A program made the translations under genes and the position numbers. Below, piece after piece: positions 835 through 62,640 of a stretch of DNA of 64,000 nt. Below the pieces are notes generated by a model, which worked only from the letters and a program-made list of their open reading frames with translations, was not told the origin of the DNA and searched no databases. Location of the stretch: the sequence record EU863408; one strand, given 5' to 3'. Numbering within the stretch: position 1 is the stretch's first letter; the number at the start of each line of letters is the position of its first letter. This stretch comes from Escherichia phage JSE.

Positions 835-1425
835 TTACTTTCTAAAAGCAGGGTGCATAGCTTTAATACCTTCCACCCTCTGACGATCCGCCGCCTGAAT
901 TGCTGGGCGAGGAACGATCAGTTGACCATCACGTTCAATGCTCATTGTTTTAAAGGGAAGAATTGCAGTACACACCAGAGATTCATGCATATCATCGGTG
1001 TATGTTAACTCAAGTTCCCCCAATTGTGAACACCAACAACCATAAAAGTTAAAAGTGCACACAATGTTACGTCGTTCGTTGTCCATCATGTGAACTTGAA
1101 CGGCTTCCGGCATTGAATCCTTCCACGCAGTGGAGTTACCGTTATTGTAGTCTACTATAGAAAGCATCCATGTGTAAAGGTTTAGATAGCTTTCCAAATG
1201 CTCATCGACAATAAACCGGACTACCAACGGGTCAAACTCCACATGACTAGACGGATAATCAGCGACCGCCAAACCATATTGACCAGCAACTTGCTTAGTC
1301 GGTGGAATGGTTATAGCCGGAAGTGTAACACCTTGAGCATTTAAAGTAAAGCCTTTTGTTAGTTGTCCATCTGGAATATTGATCTGCCAGTTGCTGGGGT
1401 TAGCATAGTTAAAGAGATTAGACAT
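835..1425 (-). CDS. 3: tail completion / sheath stabilizer protein (gp3-like)
   Basis: 196 aa; lies between gene 1 and gene 2 as in T4. Confidence 0.7.
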   Translation of the reverse strand: MSNLFNYANPSNWQINIPDGQLTKGFTLNAQGVTLPAITIPPTKQVAGQYGLAVADYPSSHVEFDPLVVRFIVDEHLESYLNLYTWMLSIVDYNNGNSTAWKDSMPEAVQVHMMDNERRNIVCTFNFYGCWCSQLGELELTYTDDMHESLVCTAILPFKTMSIERDGQLIVPRPAIQAADRQRVEGIKAMHPAFRK

Positions 1426-1615
1426 TACTGATTCCTCAAATGAAAATATTTATTAACAATTGTCGCTTTGCGACGTGCCGGAGGCACTGACTACTTTTTA
1501 ACCGAAACAAATTTTCTATTATTCTAAAGATCTTTCTTCGTTTTGGTTATGTTTTAACCAATAACTATATTTTTATACAGTAATAAATAAAACGGGTACT
1601 ATACGAGGACTTCTT

Positions 1616-1870
1616 ATGACAGAAGACATTTTGTTAAAACTCTATGATCGTCTGGATAACGAATTAGCAACATTGCGGGGTGAAGTTCTCTATTTGTCTA
1701 AATGCAATACAGATCTGCTTAAGCAGATTGCAGAAAGGGATGATCAAATAAAATCCCTTTCAGGTGCATTACGTGATCGCGACAAGGCATTAGAGATTTT
1801 ACAGCGTGTTACCAATAAGGAAGAATTAAAAGACTTCTTACATGGTTATGCTCATGCCATCGATCTATAA
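1616..1870 (+). CDS. hypothetical small coiled-coil protein (inserted relative to T4 order)
   Basis: 84 aa; GAGGA 7 nt upstream of ATG; opposite strand to flanking genes. Confidence 0.5.
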   Translation: MTEDILLKLYDRLDNELATLRGEVLYLSKCNTDLLKQIAERDDQIKSLSGALRDRDKALEILQRVTNKEELKDFLHGYAHAIDL

Positions 1871-1871
1871 T

Positions 1872-1896
1872 AAAAAAGCCCGTCATTGACGGGCTT
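1872..1896. terminator. bidirectional intrinsic terminator between convergent genes
   Basis: hairpin GCCCGTC-att-GACGGGC flanked by A6 on plus strand (T6 on minus). Confidence 0.5.
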
Positions 1897-1900
1897 AATG

Positions 1901-3043
1901 TTAACTATTGATCATATCAATGACGTTTTGTAGCTCTGATATGGATAGCGTTTCTGTATATCCATCTGGCATATCTTCTTTACTAACATAGAAACCTTTA
2001 TACTTTTTCTTTATTGCACATTCCATAGAAAGAGCATCATCACCGTTATCGTATTTTTTATAAAATGTCAACTCATGACGAAATATAGATTTTGAAGATT
2101 GGTTTTGTATTCTTTTTATTAATCTGTTGTTGGTTATACCAAATTTTATAGCAACCGCAACATCTTCTTTGTATAAAGTTTGTACATAAATGTATGCAGG
2201 TTTATTCCTCTTAAATCCATGATTGCTACACATAGGGCAACCGCTATTTTTTGATACGTAGTCTCCTAAGTTTGGCGTAAATTCATGTCCGCTACTACAA
2301 CGCATTACCAATTTTGTTTTTAGCATTCCTCTATACTCACCGCCAACAAAATCAACAAATGTATCACCTTTATCAATCGCCTTATCTGTTATTTCCTTTA
2401 CTACTTGCTCAGTTGACTTCTTGTTTTTACCTGAACATAGTTTACATCTAGATCCATTAACTAAAAACGAGTGACCGGATGCAGTATATTCATGTCCATT
2501 AGGGCATTTAACTAAGATATTTCTTTCATAAAAATCTTTATAATCAGACACATAGCCAATGACTTCGTGGTCTTTTTGGTTATTCCTCATCTCTGTTAGC
2601 AACTCTTCGCTATTCCAGCGTTTACCCTTAACGCAGAGACAACCATGACCTTGATAAAGATATATAAATTTCTTAGTAAAGTTTTTGTTGCAATCAGGAC
2701 AATGCATTAGTAATTCTGTCATTTGACCTGTATATCCTTTAGGAATATCGATCAATGTGTATTTTCCGCATATTGTCTTTAATGCATCATCTATTCTTTC
2801 TTTGGTCCAGCGTAAGCGACCAGTGCATTCATGACATTTTACACCCAGTCTAAGAGTATCTAAACTAAATATAGTTGACGTATGTCCTTTATCACATTTT
2901 AACTTAAATCTAGTATCCTTTGCGTTGGTGTATTCTCCGACTAGACCATACCATTCATAACAACATGGGATATGTTCTTTTACCTTCTCTAGATATACAC
3001 CGAACGGTCTAGGAACTGAATTGGGTTTTCTTTCTTTAGTCAT
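1901..3043 (-). CDS. Zn-ribbon repeat protein with C-terminal T5orf172 / GIY-YIG-like domain
   Basis: 380 aa; four repeats of C-x2-GH...C-x-x-C; C-terminus PAYIYVQ...AIKFGITNNRLIKR resembles the T5orf172 motif. Confidence 0.5.
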   Translation of the reverse strand: MTKERKPNSVPRPFGVYLEKVKEHIPCCYEWYGLVGEYTNAKDTRFKLKCDKGHTSTIFSLDTLRLGVKCHECTGRLRWTKERIDDALKTICGKYTLIDIPKGYTGQMTELLMHCPDCNKNFTKKFIYLYQGHGCLCVKGKRWNSEELLTEMRNNQKDHEVIGYVSDYKDFYERNILVKCPNGHEYTASGHSFLVNGSRCKLCSGKNKKSTEQVVKEITDKAIDKGDTFVDFVGGEYRGMLKTKLVMRCSSGHEFTPNLGDYVSKNSGCPMCSNHGFKRNKPAYIYVQTLYKEDVAVAIKFGITNNRLIKRIQNQSSKSIFRHELTFYKKYDNGDDALSMECAIKKKYKGFYVSKEDMPDGYTETLSISELQNVIDMINS

Positions 3044-3065
3044 ATTTTTATATCCTGTAAATTAA

Positions 3066-3092
3066 AGCGCCGTCACCAGCGGCGCTATTTTT
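3066..3092. terminator. hairpin between gene 2 and the Zn-ribbon gene
   Basis: AGCGCCG-tcaccag-CGGCGCT followed by ATTTTTAT. Confidence 0.4.
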
Positions 3093-3099
3093 ATAATCA

Positions 3100-3846
3100 T
3101 TAAAACAATTTCCACACCTTACGAGCATCATATTTCTTGTCTTTGCTCATAAACTGGTAGGTCGGAAGATACACAACCGTGCTCCAATCTTTTGGTGCGA
3201 TCTCAATCAGTTTTGTTTGGATGTGTCCAGGCAAATATGCTTTGATCATGTGGTCTGCGCCTCTCATACCTTTAACATCACTCCATTTAATTTTTAAACG
3301 AGTTTTATTACTAAGAGTAGGTGTACTCGCGTATTGTCGCAACAACGCTTCTAAGAACTGCTGGCGAGCTTTAGGTGGCGCATAGTGCAAGTTCAAACCT
3401 AGCATAATCTCGTTTCCCGCTTTAGATGTACCAAATCCTAGACAGATAATCAAGGGGTATCGGTCAAAGAATGGCAAAGAATCCCGATATTTTGGGTTAT
3501 ACGCATAAGTATAGATCCGTCCCACTTGTGGTTTTACTACCTGATGACCTTTTACACCATCCTTGATGGTCTTCATAAACCACTCCTGTGATTTTTCTTT
3601 AGGACGACTCTTTGATACAGCACGCATAGACGCACGAAAATCATTAATCATCATCATTGCGCGTTGCTGCTTATTGAGACCCTTTGCACCTTTCCCTTTT
3701 AGTTTTTCAACTTCTATTGCTGTTTTAATTTCGCTGGCATAACGAGACATACTTTTAGTGAAAGTCGCATAGGCTATTCCCTTAGAATCTGCAAATGCTT
3801 TAGCTGTCATGCCTTTGGCTTTTGCTTTCGCAAATTCTACACCCAA
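3100..3846 (-). CDS. 2: DNA end protector protein (gp2-like)
   Basis: 248 aa basic protein; position between 3 and 4. Confidence 0.75.
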   Translation of the reverse strand: MGVEFAKAKAKGMTAKAFADSKGIAYATFTKSMSRYASEIKTAIEVEKLKGKGAKGLNKQQRAMMMINDFRASMRAVSKSRPKEKSQEWFMKTIKDGVKGHQVVKPQVGRIYTYAYNPKYRDSLPFFDRYPLIICLGFGTSKAGNEIMLGLNLHYAPPKARQQFLEALLRQYASTPTLSNKTRLKIKWSDVKGMRGADHMIKAYLPGHIQTKLIEIAPKDWSTVVYLPTYQFMSKDKKYDARKVWKLF

Positions 3847-3933
3847 TTCGACCCACTGTTTAGACTTTCGTTTTTGGGGTAGACGGCTTTTCGTCTTCTG
3901 TGATTATTTCAAATACGCTCATAATATTATCCT

Positions 3934-4407
3934 CTATTTGTTAAGCCCTTTAAAGCCAAACACTTTCTTTAATGCATGTTCGGTGATGATCTTAAACTCC
4001 ATGTTATGCTTTTGGCATAATTTCACGGCAGCTAACCATTTTTCAGTATTTTTTGTGTATGTCCATACTTCATGCATATATCGTTGCTTTGTCTTCGCGG
4101 TCATTCTTTTTGGCTTTTCCGGTGGCCTTGTCTCTTTAGCTGGTTTAACTTCCCATAAATGCTCCTTGCCATCATCAAACTTAACGTAAAAATCCATAAA
4201 GTATCTGTGTCTTTTTCCGTCTGTTGATGACTCATAAGGAATTACTACGGTCTCAGATCCCCATTTTGCAACTCTAGGATTGCGGTCTAGCCACTGCATG
4301 ATCCATCTTTCCCAGCTTGAACGGTATGTGATCTTACGTATATCCCCTTTATACTTTTCCTTATTCTCAGGAACATACTTGCCCTTATAAGTGTTAGATC
4401 CTCCCAT
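3934..4407 (-). CDS. 4: head completion protein (gp4-like)
   Basis: 157 aa; YKGD..TYRS.WE...W signature recalled from T4 gp4. Confidence 0.8.
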   Translation of the reverse strand: MGGSNTYKGKYVPENKEKYKGDIRKITYRSSWERWIMQWLDRNPRVAKWGSETVVIPYESSTDGKRHRYFMDFYVKFDDGKEHLWEVKPAKETRPPEKPKRMTAKTKQRYMHEVWTYTKNTEKWLAAVKLCQKHNMEFKIITEHALKKVFGFKGLNK

Positions 4408-4422
4408 TTTAGCACCCTTTAT

Positions 4423-4430
4423 TATAAATA
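4423..4430 (+). promoter_or_regulatory. T4-type late promoter TATAAATA upstream of gene 53
   Basis: exact TATAAATA 33 nt before the ATG at 4463. Confidence 0.5.
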
Positions 4431-4462
4431 CATAATACTATTTATCAATTGAGGGTGATAAA

Positions 4463-5017
4463 ATGCTCTTTTCTTTCTTCCCTGCCATTGAATACAACGG
4501 CAAGATGATTACTGACATTGTGCGCAATTACCGCGCATATTTCAACGCAATAATTTCTGATTATAACATACAAACATATTACATTCAAGGTAGTCCACGA
4601 CCGGAACAAGTTGCATATGAAGTATACGGAAACCAACAACTTTACTGGATCTTGCTGATGCTTAATGACGTATACGATCCGTTCCATGACTGGATCACCG
4701 ATCAAGAGACAGCATATGAATCAGCCGAACAACGATATGCAAATGTCGGAGGAAATCAAGTATTATACCACGTTGATATTGACGGAAACAAGTATTGGAA
4801 TCTTACCGAATATCCGAAAGGATCAAGCAATTGGTATGATAAAGGGGATATTCATCACCGTCATTTGCAGTTTCATGGTGCATTGTCGGCAGTGGACACA
4901 CTGGAAGATGCGATCCTCCGTAATGAGGAACGACGCAAGATCAAGATCATAGATCCTACACAAATTAAACAATTTATTAACGCATTCATTCGAGAAATGG
5001 AAAAGGCTGATGTGTAA
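4463..5017 (+). CDS. 53: baseplate wedge protein gp53-like
   Basis: 184 aa; position before gene 5. Confidence 0.8.
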   Translation: MLFSFFPAIEYNGKMITDIVRNYRAYFNAIISDYNIQTYYIQGSPRPEQVAYEVYGNQQLYWILLMLNDVYDPFHDWITDQETAYESAEQRYANVGGNQVLYHVDIDGNKYWNLTEYPKGSSNWYDKGDIHHRHLQFHGALSAVDTLEDAILRNEERRKIKIIDPTQIKQFINAFIREMEKADV

Positions 5018-12500: not shown

Positions 12501-12680
12501 AACAGCGAATTGTTCCACGGACTTAAAGCAAGCGAACGAAGATTTGCAATGAGTCCACTGTTTGACCAGTCGGCGGTAACATTCTCTATGTTCCGTGAAC
12601 TTGTAGATAAACGGTTGAAGGATAATATAGGGAATCCACGCGATCCGAAGAATCCGACACAGAGGAAAATTAATGGCTAA
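9594..12680 (+). CDS. 7: baseplate wedge initiator gp7-like
   Basis: 1028 aa (T4 gp7 about 1030 aa). Confidence 0.8.
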   Translation: MIKAPSVTSLTIEKLSANQAYITWDDVGENFFYFVELAETRTRDGEIIPVDELSWVNLGYTAEQNWFEDKNLFPEYYYKFRVAVAAEGFEQSKWIETEEFQTFKTNAYNFSMMREFNLANEFVKQKFTYDNRDYIKFNTDLIQASLMKEDFVFSPEYANMTNISNYIVVDENFHEIQDHIEKVCIDINRTMLAEMNGVLYLFERFQPIVKVSNDKGQSWKAYKAFNDRVGNPVSRTCVYQSKTTTYVLGYDRIFYGRQARDTRWSADDVRFSDDTITFAKVGDENDLGFDVEVFGVFSRLTGDTTKYAEAMACSDDYLWVGAKDVIRRIRLKNTPVDTVQGSPTFGEKIFDPDVIRVTGNDKAVIQKMDVIDGKLLVFVTGEVKQRYQDPTKPENVVPSDDAGVYLIGSDGLSFQRVFGNTPQEREYIQHGFSNMSTNGDEVFISHYNHHFESILPDPETAAKYELGEAVKYSQEPTYLTDKKIHQTTFRASYDDLRIWELGPQAYYNEADYTWMRRNGVRVWITNDNRPLVVYPEVIYTQEVDTSGILDQNRVNREVYDKGTVTCYLNNVKFEGFKQYASGVMFHKNTGEIIGFYQFNYRVRDQVGVYWKPTNVAFVAELQNQVREVPWVPVHYDREQDPDLRPLLNKMTPDSFLLENENFRKFSEYYLQFLSDGSGTYYNKLKNLIKNKYPREQDAYEYLWSEMNKRNIYADKNKRDAVVRFFESRKSDFYSTKGVEASYKFLFKLLYNEDVEIEVESQAGLEYDIVVSSTNIDEDIVGRTIYTPTGRANVTYLEREYEGGRLRWRVTIHNLIGRFEEGQVIKSEKTAFEGMILVGVRGKELLSSSIDYINRSRSQYTMKIKSALPVSRYANDVMRFVHPVGFGFIGVTLLTMFINSGLSMRHVETIIQSLKNYKFDSGLPSVYPDRVADLDVDGNIKIDPLTGKPLYLTSPTIGEEFPVPPEYDQENSELFHGLKASERRFAMSPLFDQSAVTFSMFRELVDKRLKDNIGNPRDPKNPTQRKING

Positions 12681-13668
12681 TGAAAATAGTGTGATCTATC
12701 GCTCAATCATTACTAGCAAATTCAGAACAGAAAAACTTCTGAACTTCTATAATTCTGTAGGCGATGGAGCAAATCAAATTACAATTTATGGAACGTTTGG
12801 ACGTTCGGAGCCGTGGTCAGAAAACGAAAAAGAGGTGGGCTTTGCCCCACCTTATCCGACCGATTCAACGGCTGGTGTTGTTGACATGTGGACCCATATG
12901 ATGGGGGCGGTTAAGATTAACAAATCACTTCTTGATGCGGTTATCCCTCGTAAAGATTGGGGTGATACCGGACAGGATAACCCGCGCACATTCTTTATCA
13001 ATGACATTGTTGTTGTCAACTCAGCACCATATAACCGAACTGATGTTGGTAGCGGCTGGATGGTGTATCGCGTAACCGATGTTCCTGAACGCGGTTACTG
13101 CTCGATTTCAAGCATTGACGCTAAAGTAGAGTGTTTGAAGTTGGGCGGAAAGTGGACCCCCACTCATGAATCAATTGCGCCACCTGTAGGAAAGGGCGAT
13201 TCTATTGATATGGGTGATGGGTATCGTTGGGAATATCTGTACACAATTCCACCTGATGCGGCGATCAACCGTTGCACCAATGAACATATTGTTGTACCGT
13301 TCCCCGATGAACTGCGACAAGATCCGGCGCGTTGGGGCTATGACAATGTGATCACATGGTATAATGACTATAATCTTCTTTATCGGCTGAAAGTAGTAAC
13401 TTTGCGTTTTCAGGCTTATATGGACTCTGCGCAATTCCCAACTACCGCGTTAGTGGGTAATACTGGTTTCCGTCAGTTAAGCATTATCCTTAACCCATTG
13501 GAAAAGAAAGCACGCCCTAGCGATCCAGACGTTAAAGCGGTCAAAGATAAGTACCGACCGCAAGACTTAGAGCCACACTCAGGCGAAATGATCTACATGG
13601 AAAACCGACAACCTATCGTTCGGTCATTAGATCAAACAGAACTTGTTTCTGTATTGTTTGAGTTCTAA
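12673..13668 (+). CDS. 8: baseplate wedge protein gp8-like
   Basis: 331 aa; position. Confidence 0.8.
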   Translation: MANENSVIYRSIITSKFRTEKLLNFYNSVGDGANQITIYGTFGRSEPWSENEKEVGFAPPYPTDSTAGVVDMWTHMMGAVKINKSLLDAVIPRKDWGDTGQDNPRTFFINDIVVVNSAPYNRTDVGSGWMVYRVTDVPERGYCSISSIDAKVECLKLGGKWTPTHESIAPPVGKGDSIDMGDGYRWEYLYTIPPDAAINRCTNEHIVVPFPDELRQDPARWGYDNVITWYNDYNLLYRLKVVTLRFQAYMDSAQFPTTALVGNTGFRQLSIILNPLEKKARPSDPDVKAVKDKYRPQDLEPHSGEMIYMENRQPIVRSLDQTELVSVLFEF

Positions 13669-13683
13669 GTGTATGATTTTAAA

Positions 13684-13710
13684 AGCCAATTCGAGAGAGT
13701 TGGCTTTTTC
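13684..13710 (+). terminator. intrinsic terminator after gene 8
   Basis: AAGCCAA...TTGGCTT hairpin followed by TTTTT. Confidence 0.5.
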
Positions 13711-13721
13711 CATTTTTGGTG

Positions 13722-13749
13722 TTGACAATCTTATTTGGTAAGGTATAAT
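13722..13749 (+). promoter_or_regulatory. consensus sigma70-type early promoter
   Basis: TTGACA (13722-13727), 16-nt spacer, TATAAT (13744-13749); 30 nt before the ATG at 13779. Confidence 0.6.
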
Positions 13750-13778
13750 ACACACATCTAAACAACGGAGGATAAATT

Positions 13779-14036
13779 ATGGCACGTCGTAAATTTACAG
13801 ATAATTGTGAAGCAATTCAGGTATCCCCTTGCGGTTGGGATGTGATCGCGAACGGTGAAAAGATCGGCGAGATCATCGATCATACTCATTCATCACTAGC
13901 CGATTACACCGATGAACTATGGGAGGGTATCAACTTCATGAATGACACTAAACGATTCAAGACTATCGACGAAGCTATCTATTTTGTGTATAATCCAACT
14001 TTCGGTATGTGGGGAACTAGAAAATGGCACGCGTAA
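13779..14036 (+). CDS. hypothetical protein (cassette gene 1)
   Basis: 85 aa; GGAGG 7 nt before ATG. Confidence 0.5.
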   Translation: MARRKFTDNCEAIQVSPCGWDVIANGEKIGEIIDHTHSSLADYTDELWEGINFMNDTKRFKTIDEAIYFVYNPTFGMWGTRKWHA

Positions 14037-14356
14037 ATATTAAATTGCATTACACAATGAATAAAGCTAAGTTCCCAATGCAAAAGCATTACTATGGTCT
14101 ACGTGCACAAGATCCTAAACTCTATGGTACTCATTGGTTTTGTAAACATGATAACCAATGGCACACATACGAAGAAATGCATGAGATGATGAAACAGGGT
14201 ATTGAATTTAGTTATTCTAATTATGACCATCGTATAACTTGCATTCGAAAATTGAAACGATGGATTCGTAAGAATCCGCAATTTAAAAACTTTGTGTTCT
14301 TTATGTCTCATGTTTATTTGGGACATAGCGTTACCGTCACAGCAAAGGTTAAATAA
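14024..14356 (+). CDS. hypothetical protein (cassette gene 2)
   Basis: 110 aa; overlaps the upstream gene by 13 nt. Confidence 0.5.
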   Translation: MARVNIKLHYTMNKAKFPMQKHYYGLRAQDPKLYGTHWFCKHDNQWHTYEEMHEMMKQGIEFSYSNYDHRITCIRKLKRWIRKNPQFKNFVFFMSHVYLGHSVTVTAKVK

Positions 14357-15195
14357 TGGCACGACTTTCTAAACAAGAACAAAAATTACACGATCGGGTG
14401 ATGGAGTTGATTAATTCAGATCGCCCATTGACATATGAAGAAAAAGAATTTTGCTATAATAACTATCATGGCGATGGTCTAGGCGGTTCAGGTGCATTCT
14501 TTACCCCAGAAGGGCTTGCATGGGATTTTACCATCGATGCACATTGCACAGGAAAAGTATTAGATCTTTGTGCTGGGATCGGTCGCTTATCTTTTTGTAT
14601 GTTACATCGTTGTAAGCCAGAAAAGATCGTATGCGTCGAACTCAATCCAGAATTTGCGCGGATTGGCAAGAGACTATTACCGGAGGCAGAATGGATCACC
14701 AGCGATGTATTCGAATTTGAGTCAAACGAAAAATTCGATGTGGTGATCAGCAATCCACCTTTCGGGAAAATCAATACAACCGACACAAAGGATGTATTTG
14801 AGTACACTGGCGGCGAATTTGAATTTAAGGTTATGACATTAGGCCAGAAGTTTGCCGATGTAGGTTATTTTATTGTTCCTACTGGTTCCGCTGGTTTTGC
14901 TTATTCCGGCAGACCTTATTATGACGGGAGCATGAAGTCTAATAAATATCTAAAATGGAGCAAACAAACTGGTTTGGTGACTTACGCCGGATGTGGGATC
15001 GATACATCAATCTATCGCGATGAATGGCATAGTACCAACGTTTTAACAGAAGTGGTTGAGGTTCGGTATTACGAGAAAGAAGCTGTAGAAGCGCCTAAAT
15101 CACGTCCTAACGAACAAATAGAAGAAAGTAAGGAGATTACCTTACCGAAACAGGAAAGCGAGTCTGGGACGCTCTCAGATTTGTTTGACATTTAA
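14356..15195 (+). CDS. SAM-dependent amino-methyltransferase, probably N6-adenine DNA MTase
   Basis: 279 aa; motif I VLDLCAGIGRL then motif IV NPPFG. Confidence 0.6.
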   Translation: MARLSKQEQKLHDRVMELINSDRPLTYEEKEFCYNNYHGDGLGGSGAFFTPEGLAWDFTIDAHCTGKVLDLCAGIGRLSFCMLHRCKPEKIVCVELNPEFARIGKRLLPEAEWITSDVFEFESNEKFDVVISNPPFGKINTTDTKDVFEYTGGEFEFKVMTLGQKFADVGYFIVPTGSAGFAYSGRPYYDGSMKSNKYLKWSKQTGLVTYAGCGIDTSIYRDEWHSTNVLTEVVEVRYYEKEAVEAPKSRPNEQIEESKEITLPKQESESGTLSDLFDI

Positions 15196-15200
15196 TTATA

Positions 15201-15226
15201 AGCCGTCCTTGTGGGCGGCTTTTTTG
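15201..15226 (+). terminator. intrinsic terminator after the methyltransferase cassette
   Basis: AGCCGTCC-ttgt-GGGCGGCT followed by TTTTT. Confidence 0.55.
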
Positions 15227-15235
15227 TATGTATTT

Positions 15236-15243
15236 TATAAATA
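15236..15243 (+). promoter_or_regulatory. late promoter TATAAATA upstream of gene 9
   Basis: exact TATAAATA 27 nt before the ATG at 15271. Confidence 0.5.
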
Positions 15244-15270: not shown

Positions 15271-16125
15271 ATGGCACAAGTTCCAAAGAAAAGAATAGAC
15301 ACAGGTACTGTCGGCAATCCCAGCACCGGGGACATCCTCTATGACGGCGGTAATAAAATTAACGATAACTTTGATTCAATATATGACGCATTTGCTGATC
15401 AACGGTTTAAAGACGTAGACCACGGCGTAGGAAGAATGGTTATTCATGCAACCGGATACTATCAGAAACATCCACGTCAAAGCTACTCTGGTTCCGCTGT
15501 TGAGATTGGGAGTCTACACGATATCGATACAACTCAAGGCGCACTTATTGCTATTCTACCTAAAGCAAAGGTCGGTGAGGGTGTTGTATTCATAAATAGT
15601 AACGGTAGCCTTTCAACGACTACACCGCTCAATATTCGAACTCAAGCAGGTGATTCTATTAGCGGGTATTCCGGTGATGCTACAATAACACAACCATTTT
15701 CAAAAGTCACTGTTTGGTGTACTGCCGTTGAAGGTAGTCGCGTAACATGGCGATTGGGTATCGAAAGTATGTTTACCGATACAACAACGCCATTAGATAA
15801 AACAGTTAACGTAACTGGAGTAGCAACAAACGTTGCTATTGCCGCAAAAACAGAATACGTTTCCATCAAATTATTAACTACCGCTAGCAATACATCCGGT
15901 TCAAAAATGCGTTCAAGTGAAACGCTACTGATGATTGATTCTAAAGCCGGAAAAGTTTATGCGACGGAATATGCAGTTTTGCAGAAGACAGAAGACGAAT
16001 TATACACGGTTCGTTATTTCATCGGTTCCGGCGATAAAGTATATGCAGAGTATAAGGCTACTGGCGAAAATATTCGTTTAGCAGTTAAAGCCGTAGACAC
16101 TATTAAAATCGGGGTTGCTACATGA
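15271..16125 (+). CDS. 9: baseplate wedge / long tail fiber socket gp9-like
   Basis: 284 aa; N-terminus PKKRIDTG.VGN.STGDIL.DGGNKIN matches recalled T4 gp9. Confidence 0.85.
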   Translation: MAQVPKKRIDTGTVGNPSTGDILYDGGNKINDNFDSIYDAFADQRFKDVDHGVGRMVIHATGYYQKHPRQSYSGSAVEIGSLHDIDTTQGALIAILPKAKVGEGVVFINSNGSLSTTTPLNIRTQAGDSISGYSGDATITQPFSKVTVWCTAVEGSRVTWRLGIESMFTDTTTPLDKTVNVTGVATNVAIAAKTEYVSIKLLTTASNTSGSKMRSSETLLMIDSKAGKVYATEYAVLQKTEDELYTVRYFIGSGDKVYAEYKATGENIRLAVKAVDTIKIGVAT

Positions 16126-55580: not shown

Positions 55581-55609
55581 ATTATAGGGGATCGATGATC
55601 CCCTGTCAA
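55581..55609 (-). promoter_or_regulatory. repeated early-promoter cassette, copy B
   Basis: minus-strand TTGACA-GGGGATCATCGATCCCC-TATAAT. Confidence 0.55.
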
Positions 55610-55617
55610 CAACTTTT

Positions 55618-56136
55618 TTAGTTATTTTTTAATTGCTCATCTTGCAATAGGGCAATCACATGCTGGCGATGTTCTTCCGATTGAGGCACACCGAAAAAGT
55701 TTGTTTTGTAGAAATACTCTAATCGGTCTTCTCGTGTGCTCTCTTCCATCATGATCGCGGGTAGTCCGAGATTTCGGAAACGTCGCTTTTCTGCTGGCGT
55801 AAAATCACTGTAATACAACATAGAATCATCATTACCAGCAATGCTAAACTCATCCTTCATAAAGGAGAATATTGCGTTTAAACGCTGTTTACCGTCCACG
55901 ATTTCGATCTCATAGCGAGAGCCATCATCAATCTTAGCCATTGCGATAGCACCAACCGGAAAATCATTAATCAGGTTTTCGATAAACATACGTTTGTTTT
56001 CTGTGTCCCATACTAAAGGACGCTGATAATCTGGGTTCATGTTGATATAGCCATCTTCTAACCATGCATCATAAACAGAGATGACAAAGTTTTTAGTATT
56101 GGTATAGTAACGGCGTTTAGGCGTTAAACGGTTCAT
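55618..56136 (-). CDS. DUF262 (ParB-like nuclease/NTPase fold) domain protein
   Basis: 172 aa from internal ATG (MNRLTP); motifs PDYQRPLVWD, FPVGAI, VDGKQRLNAIFSF; ATG 1 nt after the upstream stop. Confidence 0.6.
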   Translation of the reverse strand: MNRLTPKRRYYTNTKNFVISVYDAWLEDGYINMNPDYQRPLVWDTENKRMFIENLINDFPVGAIAMAKIDDGSRYEIEIVDGKQRLNAIFSFMKDEFSIAGNDDSMLYYSDFTPAEKRRFRNLGLPAIMMEESTREDRLEYFYKTNFFGVPQSEEHRQHVIALLQDEQLKNN

Positions 56137-56137
56137 G

Positions 56138-56467
56138 TTATAGTCTCCTGAATGGATCATCACGTAAATCAATATCTTTTAAGAACTCATCCCATGAATG
56201 CCGGATATTGTTCTTAATTCTCCAGATAAGCGCAGGGATTGAACGCTCTCCCATCTGGAAGTAAGGATCATATGATCCGTATGCCCAATATGCTACTACA
56301 ATTCCACAATCAGCGCAATAGTATTCTATTTCACTTGCTGGCGACCAAAGTCCATCAATATGATCGGTGATCTTGCTTTCGATGTTATGGCTATGACAAT
56401 CAGGGCAACGGATGCAATGACCTTGTTTATCGTAATTTGACGTTAGCGAATACTTAAACAATCTCAT
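56138..56467 (-). CDS. hypothetical Zn-ribbon protein
   Basis: 109 aa; CIRCPDCH ... CADCG. Confidence 0.5.
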   Translation of the reverse strand: MRLFKYSLTSNYDKQGHCIRCPDCHSHNIESKITDHIDGLWSPASEIEYYCADCGIVVAYWAYGSYDPYFQMGERSIPALIWRIKNNIRHSWDEFLKDIDLRDDPFRRL

Positions 56468-57183
56468 TATAGATCCTTATTTGCTTCAAATACTGCCTTT
56501 GCGAATCCTCGCGGGGTAAGTGACCTTATAGTCTTTGTTTTCGTTCCTTTCCCGCCTAGCTTAGAATGCTGTTTACTGTACCCTTTATTAATCTGCAACG
56601 GTTTCTTTTCTGGCATTATAAAGCCTTGTCCGGACCATAAGCAAGTCTTTTTCGGGTACATATCACGGGCGGCAATATACTCAGGAAACGTAGGATGCTT
56701 ATCATCTTCCGGCAAATAACCGCCATATTCCCACGGATGGAACATATAATCAGGCTTACGCCACATGCTAGAGATAACGCTTACAGGATTCTCTATCATG
56801 TAGGGAACTCCTAGCCATTCACCCAAATAAGCGGTTATTTTAGCTGCCCTTACATCATGAACTTGAATCAATGGTCCTTGCTCTCGTTTCTTTCGTTCAA
56901 AGTGTGCAGCGCCACTAACAGCTAAATTGGTGCACGGTGGGAATGCAAAGATAATATCCGGTTTCCCCCATTCAAGGTCCATTGCTCTTTCCAGCCAGTT
57001 CAAATCAATCCAGGTGTTTACATAGGTAATGTTTGGATGTTCAAATCTGGTATTATACTTTTTGTATGTACCGTGGTCGGCGTCATCCGCATTAAAGCAG
57101 ACTACCTTATGACCTGCTTTAGCCCATTCTAGCCCCATTATCCCCGATCCGTCAAAGTTGCAGAATATTAATTTTTGTTTCAC
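56467..57183 (-). CDS. compact C5-cytosine methyltransferase-like protein
   Basis: 238 aa, GTG start; motif I-like FDGSGIMGL, motif IV DIIFAFPPCTNLAVSG, motif VI-like MIENPVSV; no obvious TRD. Confidence 0.45.
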   Translation of the reverse strand: MKQKLIFCNFDGSGIMGLEWAKAGHKVVCFNADDADHGTYKKYNTRFEHPNITYVNTWIDLNWLERAMDLEWGKPDIIFAFPPCTNLAVSGAAHFERKKREQGPLIQVHDVRAAKITAYLGEWLGVPYMIENPVSVISSMWRKPDYMFHPWEYGGYLPEDDKHPTFPEYIAARDMYPKKTCLWSGQGFIMPEKKPLQINKGYSKQHSKLGGKGTKTKTIRSLTPRGFAKAVFEANKDL

Positions 57184-57431
57184 GCTGCCCCCATTGGTTT
57201 GATAGTAACAGAATCTAAAAGACCTTTGTTAGCCAGTTCGCGGCAAGTTTTCAGATCCGCAACTTCCCAGCCAGCCGCAATCAGGTTATCAATGAGGCTG
57301 TTAGCAACTTCTTCGCTCATGAAAGAGCACTGTTTGCCGATGGTGTAGCGTACACGCTGTAATTTCAGTTTACGGAAGCCTTTAACGTTCAGGTCTTTAG
57401 CGATTTTCTTTGCGGTTTCGATGTTAGCCAT
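57180..57431 (-). CDS. hypothetical protein (MANIE N-terminus)
   Basis: 83 aa; stop overlaps the start of the methyltransferase-like gene. Confidence 0.5.
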   Translation of the reverse strand: MANIETAKKIAKDLNVKGFRKLKLQRVRYTIGKQCSFMSEEVANSLIDNLIAAGWEVADLKTCRELANKGLLDSVTIKPMGAA

Positions 57432-57715: not shown

Positions 57716-57744
57716 ATTATAGGGGATCGGTGATCCCCTGTCAA
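57716..57744 (-). promoter_or_regulatory. repeated early-promoter cassette, copy D
   Basis: minus-strand TTGACA-GGGGATCACCGATCCCC-TATAAT. Confidence 0.55.
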
Positions 57745-61195: not shown

Positions 61196-61224
61196 ATTAT
61201 AGGGGATCACCGATCCCCTGTCAA
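61196..61224 (-). promoter_or_regulatory. repeated early-promoter cassette, copy I
   Basis: minus-strand TTGACA-GGGGATCGGTGATCCCC-TATAAT. Confidence 0.55.
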
Positions 61225-62610: not shown

Positions 62611-62640
62611 ATTATAGGGGAGTTTAACCTCCCCTGTCAA
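62611..62640 (-). promoter_or_regulatory. repeated early-promoter cassette, copy K
   Basis: minus-strand TTGACA-GGGGAGGTTAAACTCCCC-TATAAT (18-nt spacer). Confidence 0.5.

What the first reader, a model, noticed from the sequence alone, without database searches (positions are those of the whole stretch)
13684..15226. Self-contained early cassette with an amino-methyltransferase inserted between baseplate genes 8 and 9
Gene 8 is followed by a terminator, a textbook TTGACA-N16-TATAAT promoter, three genes (85 aa, 110 aa, 279 aa) and another terminator before the late promoter of gene 9. The 279-aa protein has SAM-binding motif I (VLDLCAGIGRL) followed by NPPF, the gamma-class N6-adenine MTase arrangement. 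An early-expressed methyltransferase embedded in a late structural operon looks like an accessory (possibly anti-restriction) island. All three genes start MAR.
Basis: partly seen in the sequence, partly recalled or inferred. Interest (0 to 1): 0.6.

Follow-up and report, generated by a model that had tools for sequence, protein, structure and literature searches.

The report
Clamp-tailed methyltransferase cassette in Krischvirus
A small early-gene cassette wedged between two baseplate genes of an RB49-type phage encodes an adenine-type methyltransferase whose last nine residues nearly copy the sliding-clamp docking peptide of the phage's own DNA polymerase, which suggests (not yet shown) that it rides the replication fork to methylate new phage DNA.

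Summary
Between gp8 and gp9 of a Krischvirus (RB49/Phi1-type) genome lie a strong terminator, a perfect TTGACA-N16-TATAAT promoter, three overlapping ORFs (85, 110, 279 aa), a second terminator and a TATAAATA late promoter. The control unit fits the published PeSL class. The cassette is not strain-variable: all 57 Krischvirus records carry it. It is a mosaic. Divergent relatives have the methyltransferase (MTase) alone, or with a different passenger, in the same slot, and the two small ORFs travel as a separate pair in ~138-kb phages. The MTase is an amino-MTase whose closest folds are adenine-N6 enzymes acting on RNA or DNA; the GenBank label PrmC fails its cut-off. New here: a disordered acidic linker ends in ...GTLSDLFDI, nearly identical to the phage polymerase's clamp-docking tail (...ASLTDLFDI), ranking 2nd of 951 genome ORFs against a polymerase-tail model. 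Across the wider family, 14% of representatives end in the bacterial beta-clamp motif QLxLF (controls 0.3%). Best reading: an early, clamp-tethered DNA adenine MTase. Binding, DNA substrate and target site are untested. Sister lineages carry different tails. Bulk HPLC of a cassette-bearing phage detected no modification.

The parts
12673..13668 (+). gp8 baseplate wedge gene (upstream flank of the insertion slot)
   Evidence: Pfam Phage-Gp8, E 1.3e-143; annotated as gene 8 in Phi1.
13681..13708 (+). Intrinsic terminator; the stem-loop part of the PeSL-type unit. It would stop late gene 6-8 transcripts.
   Evidence: 12-bp stem plus T run; -17.3 kcal/mol, z -5.3. A terminator sits at the same position in relative L016.
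13722..13749 (+). Sigma70-type early promoter TTGACA-N16-TATAAT; the promoter part of the PeSL-type unit
   Evidence: 12/12 match. 10 perfect sites in the window against 0.11 expected. The -10 box plus start region share an exact 14-nt block with PeSLs near 55.6, 57.7 and 62.6 kb. PeSL class definition in PMC2839356.
13779..14036 (+). ORF140 homolog, 85 aa, function unknown; first half of a mobile two-gene module
   Evidence: phrog_16603, unknown function. No Pfam, NCBIfam or PADLOC match. Found in 57 Krischvirus records plus 3 other records, one shown to be the 138-kb phage HMD-6. Adjacent to the ORF142 homolog in HMD-6.
14024..14356 (+). ORF142 homolog, 110 aa, function unknown; second half of the two-gene module; two alleles within the genus
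   Evidence: phrog_12630. 37 records at >=95% identity and 24 at 60-80%, including RB49. 60% identical to the HMD-6 neighbour, with the same 13-nt overlap. Single-sequence AF2 model too poor to use.
14356..15195 (+). 279-aa SAM-dependent amino-methyltransferase (Phi1 ORF143 homolog), including the stop codon
14491..14508 (+). Motif X, GAFFTP (residues 46-51)
   Evidence: G46, A47, F49 and P51 invariant in 35 homologs.
14557..14589 (+). Motif I, VLDLCAGIGRL (residues 68-78), SAM binding
   Evidence: L71, C72, A73, G74, I75 and G76 invariant.
14752..14763 (+). Motif IV, NPPF (residues 133-136), catalytic amino-MTase tetrapeptide
   Evidence: N133, P134 and F136 invariant, P135 in >=90%.
15076..15165 (+). 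Disordered acidic linker (residues ~241-270). Absent from the bacterial/prophage copies listed by the homolog search and aligned.
   Evidence: pLDDT 47-55. Largely rewritten, with a 6-residue insertion, in relative P0002.
15166..15192 (+). C-terminal peptide GTLSDLFDI (residues 271-279): putative gp45 sliding-clamp docking motif
   Evidence: Phi1 gp43 ends ASLTDLFDI. Rank 1 of 951 non-self ORFs by BLOSUM. Rank 2 of 951 against a PWM of 65 non-Krischvirus polymerase tails: 21.1 against background -21.9 +/- 8.8. LSDLFDI is kept in KFS-EC and L[ST]DLFDI in P0002 while the linker drifts.
15200..15221 (+). Intrinsic terminator closing the cassette
   Evidence: 9-bp stem with 6 GC pairs plus T run; -15.9 kcal/mol, z -4.3.
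15236..15243 (+). T4-type late promoter TATAAATA for gene 9
   Evidence: It lies 28 nt upstream of the gp9 ATG. The same arrangement occurs in L016.
15271..16125 (+). gp9 baseplate/tail-fibre connector gene (downstream flank)
   Evidence: Pfam T4_gp9_10_N, E 4e-40; annotated as gene 9 in Phi1.

Best explanation
The cassette is a PeSL-type early transcription unit inserted into the late baseplate operon of a Krischvirus. Its constant cargo is an orphan amino-methyltransferase of the adenine-N6 type.

Proposed mechanism:
1. Host sigma70 RNA polymerase transcribes the operon early, from the consensus promoter (inferred from sequence and from the published behaviour of PeSLs).
2. The MTase has a catalytic core (residues 1-240), a flexible acidic linker and a C-terminal peptide, ...TLSDLFDI. 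This peptide mimics the tail by which the phage's own DNA polymerase gp43 docks into the hydrophobic pocket of the gp45 sliding clamp.
3. The MTase therefore binds gp45 clamps loaded on replicating phage DNA and methylates adenines in nascent duplex DNA right behind the fork (inferred). This would work like DNMT1 on PCNA.
4. The probable benefit is fast methylation confined to phage DNA, protecting progeny DNA from restriction-type defences (speculative).

The two small upstream ORFs are an unrelated, exchangeable passenger module of unknown function.

Shown here: the anatomy, conservation and mosaic structure of the cassette; the amino-MTase fold; the tail's identity to the polymerase tail; and the family-wide enrichment of clamp motifs.
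Inferred: clamp binding, DNA as substrate, adenine as target, and the protective role.
For: Architecture:
- establish the layout.
- It fits the PeSL definition: a sigma70 consensus promoter with an adjacent stem-loop, in one subclass placed upstream of -35. Promoter and terminator activity of PeSLs were shown experimentally for other copies in phi1/RB49 (PMC2839356).
- It shares an exact 14-nt block with other PeSLs in the window.

MTase class:
- Motifs X, I and IV are invariant.
- Eco57I passes its Pfam cut-off.
- The strongest profile hit is the MADS MAD2 DNA MTase, 60 bits.
- Other PHROG neighbours are annotated DNA MTase, helicase or DarB-like, in profiles of 1000-4600 positions.

Tail:
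- gp43 of Phi1 ends ASLTDLFDI and the MTase ends GTLSDLFDI.
- The Phi1 gp43 tail aligns column for column with the RB69 gp43 tail. That RB69 peptide was co-crystallised with gp45 (PDB 1b8h, as described in PMC3012046).
- 118 T4-type polymerases share [ST]L..[LMIFV]F[DG] at the C-terminus. A PWM built from 65 non-Krischvirus tails ranks the MTase 2nd of 951 ORFs.
- The motif is conserved while the linker diverges.

Family level:
- A strict QΦxΦF beta-clamp motif lies in the last 12 residues of 20/141 representatives against 1/359 control ORFs (p = 6e-11), and never within residues 1-220. The consensus QL(S/D)LF is cited in PMC9690074.
- The four QLxLF members whose context I examined sit on a plasmid-like contig, a genomic island and two 42-50 kb phage contigs. 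The phage contigs encode DnaB; no polymerase or clamp gene lies in the 17-21 kb fetched around the MTase.

Replication context:
- In RB43 and Matisse the homolog lies between the helicase gp41 and primase gp61 genes.
- In L028 it lies directly after DnaB.
Against: 1. Nothing here shows binding, activity or substrate.
2. The two best structural neighbours are RNA m6A MTases (METTL5 and PH1948), and the protein has no separate DNA target-recognition domain.
3. Strict co-variation fails. The phage of contigs L016 and L019 (same assembly) keeps a polymerase tail SLADLFDI, but its MTase ends TLDFVDFSEI. P0004 ends SLSMFDI. Neither scores against the polymerase-tail PWM.
4. The RB43/Slopekvirus MTase tail F[TD]F[RTV]IE is conserved but does not match the polymerase-tail model, so its partner is unknown.
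5. Many family members lack any tail: the enterobacterial prophage copies, Aeromonas P19 and phiM19.
6. Krischvirus TB34 carries the cassette, yet bulk HPLC/MS found no detectable modified nucleoside (PMC13390438). This argues against dense methylation, though not against sparse site-specific methylation.
7. PADLOC holds only DNA MTase models, so that comparison is biased.
Confidence: 0.5

Rival explanations
1. It is an ordinary free orphan DNA adenine MTase. The C-terminal peptide is not a working clamp tether. It might dock on another replisome protein, or the resemblance might have no function.
For: The tails of sister lineages differ and do not fit the polymerase-tail model. The RB43-group tail is a distinct motif. 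Many homologs work without any tail. Only the last 14 nt are shared with gene 43 at the DNA level.
Against: The match is rank 2 of 951 against an independent polymerase-tail model. The motif is kept while the linker diverges. The wider family is strongly enriched for the unrelated beta-clamp motif at the same position, which is hard to explain unless clamp docking is selected.
Confidence: 0.2
2. It is an RNA m6A methyltransferase of the METTL5, Erm or TrmN type. It would modify host or phage rRNA, tRNA or mRNA early in infection as part of host takeover.
Confidence: 0.15
3. It is a protein glutamine methyltransferase (PrmC/HemK), as several GenBank records annotate it.
For: The best NCBIfam hit is TIGR03534 RF_mod_PrmC, E 1.7e-9. 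It has an NPPF/NPPY-type motif. Records for kaaroe, ECD7, kvi and 011D4 carry this label.
Confidence: 0.03
4. The protein acts mainly as a clamp-occupying regulator or decoy, and methyl transfer is secondary.
For: The tail is nearly identical to the polymerase tail. It is expressed from a very strong early promoter.
Against: All catalytic motifs are invariant across the family, and tail-less members are common. So the conserved function is catalysis.
Confidence: 0.05

Closest known systems
PeSL (promoter-early stem-loop) cassettes of RB49/phi1 (Arbiol et al. 2010, PMC2839356; Comeau et al. 2014, PMC4122927)
   Same: A consensus sigma70 promoter with an adjacent terminator stem-loop, directly upstream of genes of unknown function. 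It includes the rare case of a PeSL inside the virion module. It shields late genes from early read-through. It shares sequence with other PeSLs in the genome, and the flanked ORFs differ between relatives.
   Different: This particular unit, its cargo and the gp8/gp9 slot are not discussed in the paper's main text. No mini-circle or recombination evidence was obtained here.
Gamma-class N6-adenine DNA methyltransferases (M.TaqI, Eco57I family, type I HsdM)
   Different: Only about 240 catalytic residues, with no separate target-recognition domain or specificity subunit. N6_Mtase scores below its cut-off. The substrate is unproven.
METTL5 / PH1948 / Erm / KsgA RNA adenine methyltransferases
   Different: None of those proteins is known to me to carry a clamp motif. 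I recall METTL5 needing TRMT112. The genomic contexts here are replication modules and mobile DNA.
gp45-binding peptides of T4-type phages: gp43 C-terminal tail, gp33/gp55 C-termini, T4 DNA ligase loop (PMC3012046, PMC9690074, PMC6212786)
   Same: A short hydrophobic and acidic peptide, [ST]L..ΦF[DG], on a flexible segment. Here it sits at the extreme C-terminus and shares 8 of its last 9 residues with this phage group's gp43.
   Different: No methyltransferase has been reported among gp45 partners in the papers I could search. Binding was not tested.
Eukaryotic DNMT1-PCNA
   Same: The concept: a maintenance DNA methyltransferase recruited to newly replicated DNA through a clamp-binding motif (PMC9690074).
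   Different: DNMT1 is a C5-cytosine enzyme with an internal PIP box, is unrelated in sequence, and is cellular rather than viral.
Phage and plasmid orphan MTases used against restriction (T4 Dam, P1 DarB-type MTase domains, MADS MAD2)
   Same: Orphan MTase on mobile DNA. Profile similarity to mad2 (60 bits) and to PHROG families annotated DNA MTase, helicase or DarB-like.
   Different: The phage already has a separate dam gene (Phi1 p063). The match covers only the catalytic core. NCBIfam MADS2 scores 12 bits against a cut-off of 720, so it is not a MAD2.

Membership tests
PeSL regulatory cassette | Sequence identical or near-identical to the sigma70 -35/-10 consensus | tested here: met
   TTGACA-N16-TATAAT, 12/12.
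PeSL regulatory cassette | Adjacent stable stem-loop able to terminate upstream transcription | tested here: met
   13681-13708, -17.3 kcal/mol plus T run. This is the published subclass with the stem-loop upstream of -35.
PeSL regulatory cassette | Member of a repeated motif family in the genome, intergenic and upstream of an ORFan | tested here: met
   An exact 14-nt block is shared with three PeSLs at 55.6, 57.7 and 62.6 kb. It lies upstream of ORF140, which has unknown function.
PeSL regulatory cassette | Promoter and terminator activity in vivo | not testable with these tools
   Shown for other PeSLs only.
Gamma-class N6-adenine DNA MTase | Linear order motif X, I, IV with (D/N)PP(Y/F) | tested here: met
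   FFTP (48-51), LDLCAGIG (69-76) and NPPF (133-136), all conserved. This order is also found in RNA amino-MTases, so it is not discriminating.
Gamma-class N6-adenine DNA MTase | Curated family score cut-off (Pfam Eco57I; Pfam N6_Mtase) | tested here: inconclusive
   Eco57I scores 28.6 against a cut-off of 25.3 (met, 8 of 35 members). N6_Mtase scores 16.7 against a cut-off of 20.4 (not met).
Gamma-class N6-adenine DNA MTase | Target-recognition domain or specificity partner | tested here: not met
   The AF2 model is a single domain of about 240 residues. The MTase stands alone in the slot in L016 and L020.
Gamma-class N6-adenine DNA MTase | m6A formed on DNA | not testable with these tools
   The only indirect data are negative: bulk HPLC/MS of TB34 found no detectable modification.
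PrmC/HemK release-factor glutamine MTase | NCBIfam equivalog cut-off and match to the N-terminal part of the model | tested here: not met
RsmC/RlmG-type rRNA m2G MTase (MTS domain) | Pfam MTS domain; NCBIfam RsmC equivalog | tested here: inconclusive
METTL5/PH1948 RNA m6A MTase | Close fold and sequence match over the whole protein | tested here: inconclusive
gp45 clamp-binding proteins of T4-type phages | Clamp-docking peptide matching the gp43 tail consensus, on a flexible segment | tested here: met
   The linker has pLDDT ~55 or below (10-residue block means 47-55).
gp45 clamp-binding proteins of T4-type phages | Tail co-varies with the polymerase tail across related phages | tested here: not met
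   In the phage of contigs L016 and L019 the polymerase ends SLADLFDI and the MTase ends TLDFVDFSEI. The RB43 group also differs.
gp45 clamp-binding proteins of T4-type phages | Physical binding to gp45 | not testable with these tools
MADS MAD2 methyltransferase | Full-length match at the curated cut-off | tested here: not met
   The PADLOC mad2 hit of 60 bits covers only profile positions 258-370 of 492. NCBIfam MADS2 scores 12 bits against 720.

The most novel reading that the evidence does not exclude
A widespread family of orphan adenine methyltransferases on mobile DNA (lytic phages, temperate phages, plasmids, genomic islands) is recruited to replication forks by C-terminal clamp-binding peptides. 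These peptides have been repeatedly tuned to the clamp their replicon uses: QLxLF for the host beta clamp and a gp43-type tail for the gp45 clamp of Krischvirus. This would be a prokaryotic and viral counterpart of DNMT1-PCNA. It would allow replication-coupled, replicon-selective self-methylation that outruns restriction.
Probability: 0.4. Interest if true: 0.75.

Novelty: new variant of a known kind. Interest (0 to 1): 0.55.

Why it matters
If the tail does dock on the sliding clamp, this would be, as far as the searchable literature shows, the first clamp-tethered DNA methyltransferase in a phage or bacterium.

- It would explain how a small MTase without a recognition domain is confined to replicating phage (or plasmid) DNA, and how that DNA is methylated before host nucleases can cut it.
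- It would add a new class of clamp client proteins.
- It gives an easy experimental handle: one peptide and one purified clamp.
- The family-wide pattern suggests the same trick in plasmids and temperate phages, which bears on how mobile elements escape restriction.

On a practical level, the current GenBank labels for this gene disagree ('release factor glutamine methyltransferase', 'radical SAM protein', 'hypothetical protein', 'DNA methyltransferase'), and at least the first is unsupported.

Tried and rejected
1. PrmC/HemK annotation: rejected. It scores 37.5 bits against a cut-off of 199.
2. Phi1 ORF189 (window 56467-57183, minus strand) as a paralog: rejected. It has an FPPC motif, which I read as C5-cytosine-type, its sequence looks unrelated, and it has no Pfam hit.
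3. The three-gene cassette as one functional system: rejected. The MTase occurs alone in L016, L017 and L020 and with a different 154-aa ORF in L018. The ORF140+142 pair occurs without an MTase nearby in HMD-6.
4. Recent DNA-level copy of the gene 43 3' end: rejected. Only 14 nt are identical.
5. Strict tail/polymerase co-variation: tested and not met.
6. RB43/Slopekvirus tails as polymerase-type clamp motifs: not supported by the PWM. Their partner is left open.
8. A profile search of alignment A1 against PDB sequences added nothing beyond the single-sequence search.
9. The single-sequence AF2 model of ORF142 had pLDDT 57.5, too poor for a fold search.
10. The Slopekvirus 'unknown DNA modification' paper does not mention this gene.
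11. Four literature searches for clamp-binding phage, orphan or adenine MTases found nothing relevant.
Full report
**What the window is.** The region belongs to a Krischvirus (RB49/Phi1-type, 'pseudo-T-even') genome. The 1.7-kb stretch matches 57 phage records at 90-99% identity. The surrounding ORFs are gp7, gp8, gp9, gp10 and gp11. In Phi1 the three inserted genes are ORF140, ORF142 and ORF143.

**Observation.**
- gp8 ends at 13668.
- A 12-bp stem-loop with a T run lies at 13681-13708 (-17.3 kcal/mol; none of 200 shuffles folds as well).
- A perfect TTGACA-N16-TATAAT promoter lies at 13722-13749.
- Three ORFs follow, overlapping by 13 nt and 1 nt (13779-14036, 14024-14356, 14356-15195).
- A second terminator lies at 15200-15221 (-15.9 kcal/mol).
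- TATAAATA lies at 15236-15243, and the gp9 ATG is at 15271.
- Perfect sigma70 consensus sites are far over-represented in the window: 10 against 0.11 expected.
- Only three of the 93 ORFs of at least 80 aa in the window start MAR. The three cassette ORFs meet that criterion, so they must be those three. I have no explanation for this. For the MTase, MA[RK] is ancestral, because the bacterial homologs have it too.

**The regulatory architecture is a known kind.** Arbiol et al. (PMC2839356) described about 50 'PeSL' units per genome in phi1 and RB49.
- Each is a sigma70-consensus early promoter joined to a terminator stem-loop. There are five subclasses, one with the stem-loop upstream of -35.
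- A few sit in the virion module next to genes of unknown function.
- Their proposed role includes preventing early transcription from spilling into late virion genes. Promoter and terminator activity were shown for other copies.
- The present unit fits that definition. It also shares an exact 14-nt block (-10 box plus start region) with three PeSLs at 55.6, 57.7 and 62.6 kb.
- The paper's main text does not mention this locus or a methyltransferase.

**The cassette is a fixed insertion and a mosaic.**
- A Tevenvirinae phage, VR20, has gp8 and gp9 64 bp apart, so the cassette is an insertion.
- It is fixed in the genus. A gp8 probe finds 57 Krischvirus-level records, and the cassette probe finds 57.
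- Three divergent relatives from metagenomes (gp8 88% identical in L016) carry the MTase alone between gp8 and gp9. L016 shows the same layout of terminator, perfect promoter, MTase, terminator and TATAAATA. A fourth relative carries an unrelated 154-aa ORF upstream of the MTase.
- ORF140 and ORF142 occur as an adjacent pair in the 138-kb phage HMD-6, with the same 13-nt overlap and 69% and 60% identity. No MTase is annotated within 2.5 kb of them there.
- ORF142 exists as two alleles inside the genus, about 72% identical to each other, in otherwise ~98% identical genomes. RB49 itself has the divergent allele.
- So the MTase is the constant cargo and the small ORFs are exchangeable passengers. 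Their function is unknown. They have no Pfam, NCBIfam or PADLOC match, their PHROG families are of unknown function, and a single-sequence AF2 model of ORF142 was too poor to use.

**What the 279-aa protein is.**
- It carries motif X (GAFFTP), motif I (LDLCAGIG) and motif IV (NPPF), all invariant or nearly so in 35 homologs.
- Pfam gives MTS (38.5 bits) and Eco57I (28.6 bits), both above their cut-offs. N6_Mtase falls below its cut-off.
- The best NCBIfam hit is PrmC, but at 37.5 bits against a cut-off of 199. The 'release factor glutamine methyltransferase' label in several GenBank records is therefore unsupported.
- An AlphaFold model built from 35 sequences is confident over residues 1-240 (mean pLDDT 84.6) and disordered after that.
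- The strongest profile match anywhere is to the MADS MAD2 DNA methyltransferase (60 bits), followed by several type II DNA MTases. That library holds only DNA MTases, so the comparison is biased.
- Other PHROG neighbours are annotated DNA MTase, helicase or DarB-like, in profiles of 1000-4600 positions.
- The phage also has a canonical dam gene and a third MTase-like gene.

**The new feature: the tail.**
- Aligning homologs showed that the bacterial and prophage copies among the closest homologs (236-250 aa) stop right after the catalytic domain. Phage copies carry a low-complexity acidic linker and a conserved C-terminal peptide.
- In the window it reads ...ESGTLSDLFDI. The DNA polymerase gp43 of Phi1 ends ...KVASLTDLFDI.
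- The Phi1 gp43 C-terminus aligns column for column with that of RB69 gp43 (...ASLFDMFD). RB69's C-terminal 'PIP-box' peptide was co-crystallised in the hydrophobic pocket of the gp45 clamp (PDB 1b8h, as reviewed in PMC3012046).
- T4 gp33 and gp55 dock on gp45 through related C-terminal LDFL motifs (PMC9690074).
- Among 951 ORFs of the Phi1 genome, the MTase tail is the best non-self match to the gp43 tail: 32 against 17 for the next ORF, with background -8 +/- 7.
- 118 T4-type polymerases share [ST]L..[LMIFV]F[DG] at the C-terminus. A weight matrix built from 65 distinct non-Krischvirus tails scores the polymerase 26.0, the MTase 21.1 and the next ORF 13.0, against a background of -21.9 +/- 8.8.
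- Only 14 nt are shared at the DNA level, so this is not a recent copy.
- The peptide behaves like a short linear motif. LSDLFDI is kept in KFS-EC and L[ST]DLFDI in P0002, while the linker changes or gains a 6-residue insertion.
- There is a direct methodological precedent. [quoted passage not shown]

**Limits of the tail argument.**
- The polymerase P0122 (tail SLADLFDI) comes from the same assembly as contig L016, whose MTase ends TLDFVDFSEI. That is an 'LDF'-type sequence reminiscent of T4 motifs, but it does not score against the polymerase-tail matrix. Neither does P0004 (SLSMFDI).
- In RB43 and Matisse the MTase lies in the replication module between the helicase gp41 and primase gp61 genes. 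Its conserved tail...[LN]F[TD]F[RTV]IE, differs from the polymerase tail, SLN[DT]LFG(D)DW, and does not fit the matrix. Its partner is unknown.
- T4-type phages of Aeromonas and Sinorhizobium have tail-less copies.

**Family-wide pattern.**
- An exhaustive search found a compact family: 728 representatives at E <= 1e-3.
- Many representatives end in QLSLF, QLALF, QLTLF, QLSLFDAA or ...DLFG.... This is the bacterial beta-clamp-binding pentapeptide QL(S/D)LF (PMC9690074).
- A strict QΦxΦF motif lies in the last 12 residues of 20 of 141 representatives, against 1 of 359 control ORFs (Fisher p = 6e-11). It never occurs within residues 1-220 of the family. A relaxed pattern gives 27% against 1.9%.
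- I examined four such members in context:
  - One sits on a plasmid-like contig next to parA-parB and a relaxase/NikA module.
  - One sits in a Pseudomonas island with ParB_N and an Xre-RES pair.
  - Two sit on 42-50 kb phage contigs that encode DnaB. No polymerase or clamp gene lies in the 17-21 kb fetched around the MTase. On one of them the MTase comes directly after DnaB.
- The tail-less enterobacterial copies sit as the last or second-to-last gene of a prophage or island next to the chromosomal flank.
- In this small sample, the clamp motif on the MTase follows the clamp the replicon is expected to use. That is what a clamp-tethering model predicts, and it is hard to reconcile with an RNA or protein substrate.

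**Experimental hints from the literature.**
- Bulk HPLC/MS of DNA from Krischvirus TB34, which carries the cassette (H20), detected no modified nucleoside (PMC13390438). This argues against dense adenine methylation. By my estimate, a sparse site-specific mark would be about 1% of adenines or less and could have been missed or not reported. The paper does not mention methyl-adenine at all, although the phage has a dam gene.
- The Slopekvirus 'unknown DNA modification' paper lists only Dam and Dcm and overlooks this gene.
- Four searches found no description of a clamp-binding phage, orphan or adenine MTase. The only clamp-bound methyltransferase in the sliding-clamp review is DNMT1-PCNA.

**Verdict.**
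The cassette is an early unit and the protein is an amino-MTase. But the unit is a fixed, mosaic insertion of the known PeSL type rather than a variable island, and motif order alone does not prove a DNA substrate.
- The best-supported mechanism is an early-expressed DNA adenine MTase tethered to the gp45 sliding clamp (confidence about 0.5). Rivals are an untethered DNA MTase (0.2), an RNA m6A MTase (0.15), a clamp decoy (0.05) and PrmC (0.03).
- The gene itself is already in the databases. The clamp-type tail, and its family-wide counterpart, appear to be undescribed. I therefore rate it a new variant of a known kind and of moderate-to-good interest, pending one simple binding experiment and one methylome.

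Noticed in passing
window 55618-57431 (- strand): A second modification-type cluster. It contains a 238-aa protein annotated 'DNA methyltransferase' in Phi1 (ORF189), with an FPPC motif that I read as C5-cytosine-type and no Pfam hit; a 109-aa zinc-ribbon protein; and a 184-aa GmrSD_N (DUF262) protein (E 6e-20). PMC13390438 reports that Krischvirus SAP has glucosyl-methyl-cytosine DNA while the 99.96%-identical TB34 does not, with no pathway genes identified. This cluster may be worth examining for that puzzle.
   Followed up: partly
window 55581-55609, 57716-57744, 61196-61224, 62611-62640 (- strand): Four perfect sigma70 promoters whose -35/-10 spacer is itself a G-rich/C-rich palindrome (TTGACAGGGGATC...GATCCCCTATAAT). 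These match the commonest PeSL subclass described by Arbiol et al.
   Followed up: partly
window 14024-14356: ORF142 exists as two alleles, about 72% identical to each other, in Krischvirus genomes that are otherwise ~98% identical. RB49 carries the divergent allele. This implies a recent allelic replacement inside the cassette.
   Followed up: partly
window 13779, 14024, 14356: All three cassette ORFs start Met-Ala-Arg (ATGGCACG), and they account for all 3 of the 93 ORFs of at least 80 aa in the window that do so. The ORF142 homolog in HMD-6 starts MAH. No explanation found.
   Followed up: partly
L008:20046-20780 (RB43) and L013:12001-12777 (Matisse): RB43-group and Slopekvirus homologs lie between the gp41 helicase and gp61 primase genes. 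They end in a conserved peptide, ...[LN]F[TD]F[RTV]IE, after a Pro/Glu-rich linker. It does not match the polymerase tail, so its binding partner is unknown. The Matisse record annotates the gene as 'radical SAM protein'.
   Followed up: partly
L007:134-1630 (Phi1 gene 30, DNA ligase): The ligase C-terminus, ...NTVKEVFDV, is the third-best match in the Phi1 genome to the gp43 tail (score 17 against background -8). T4 ligase binds gp45 through an internal loop, so Krischvirus ligase may use a different position.
   Followed up: no
one search hit table (GenBank records of kaaroe, ECD7, kvi, 011D4 and others): Public annotation of the same gene is inconsistent: 'release factor glutamine methyltransferase (prmC)', 'DNA methyltransferase', 'putative methyltransferase', 'hypothetical protein'. 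The prmC label fails the NCBIfam cut-off by a wide margin.
   Followed up: yes
L016 / L019 (ENA assembly ERZ27235516): An uncultured relative of Krischvirus (gp8 88% and gp43 83% identical) is present in metagenomes. It has the MTase alone in the gp8/gp9 slot and a different MTase tail, TLDFVDFSEI.
   Followed up: partly
L026:1642-4617 (- strand): The plasmid-like contig carrying a QLSLF-tailed family member also encodes a 991-aa protein with weak N6_Mtase and Eco57I matches. So that element has a second, larger MTase-like protein.
   Followed up: no
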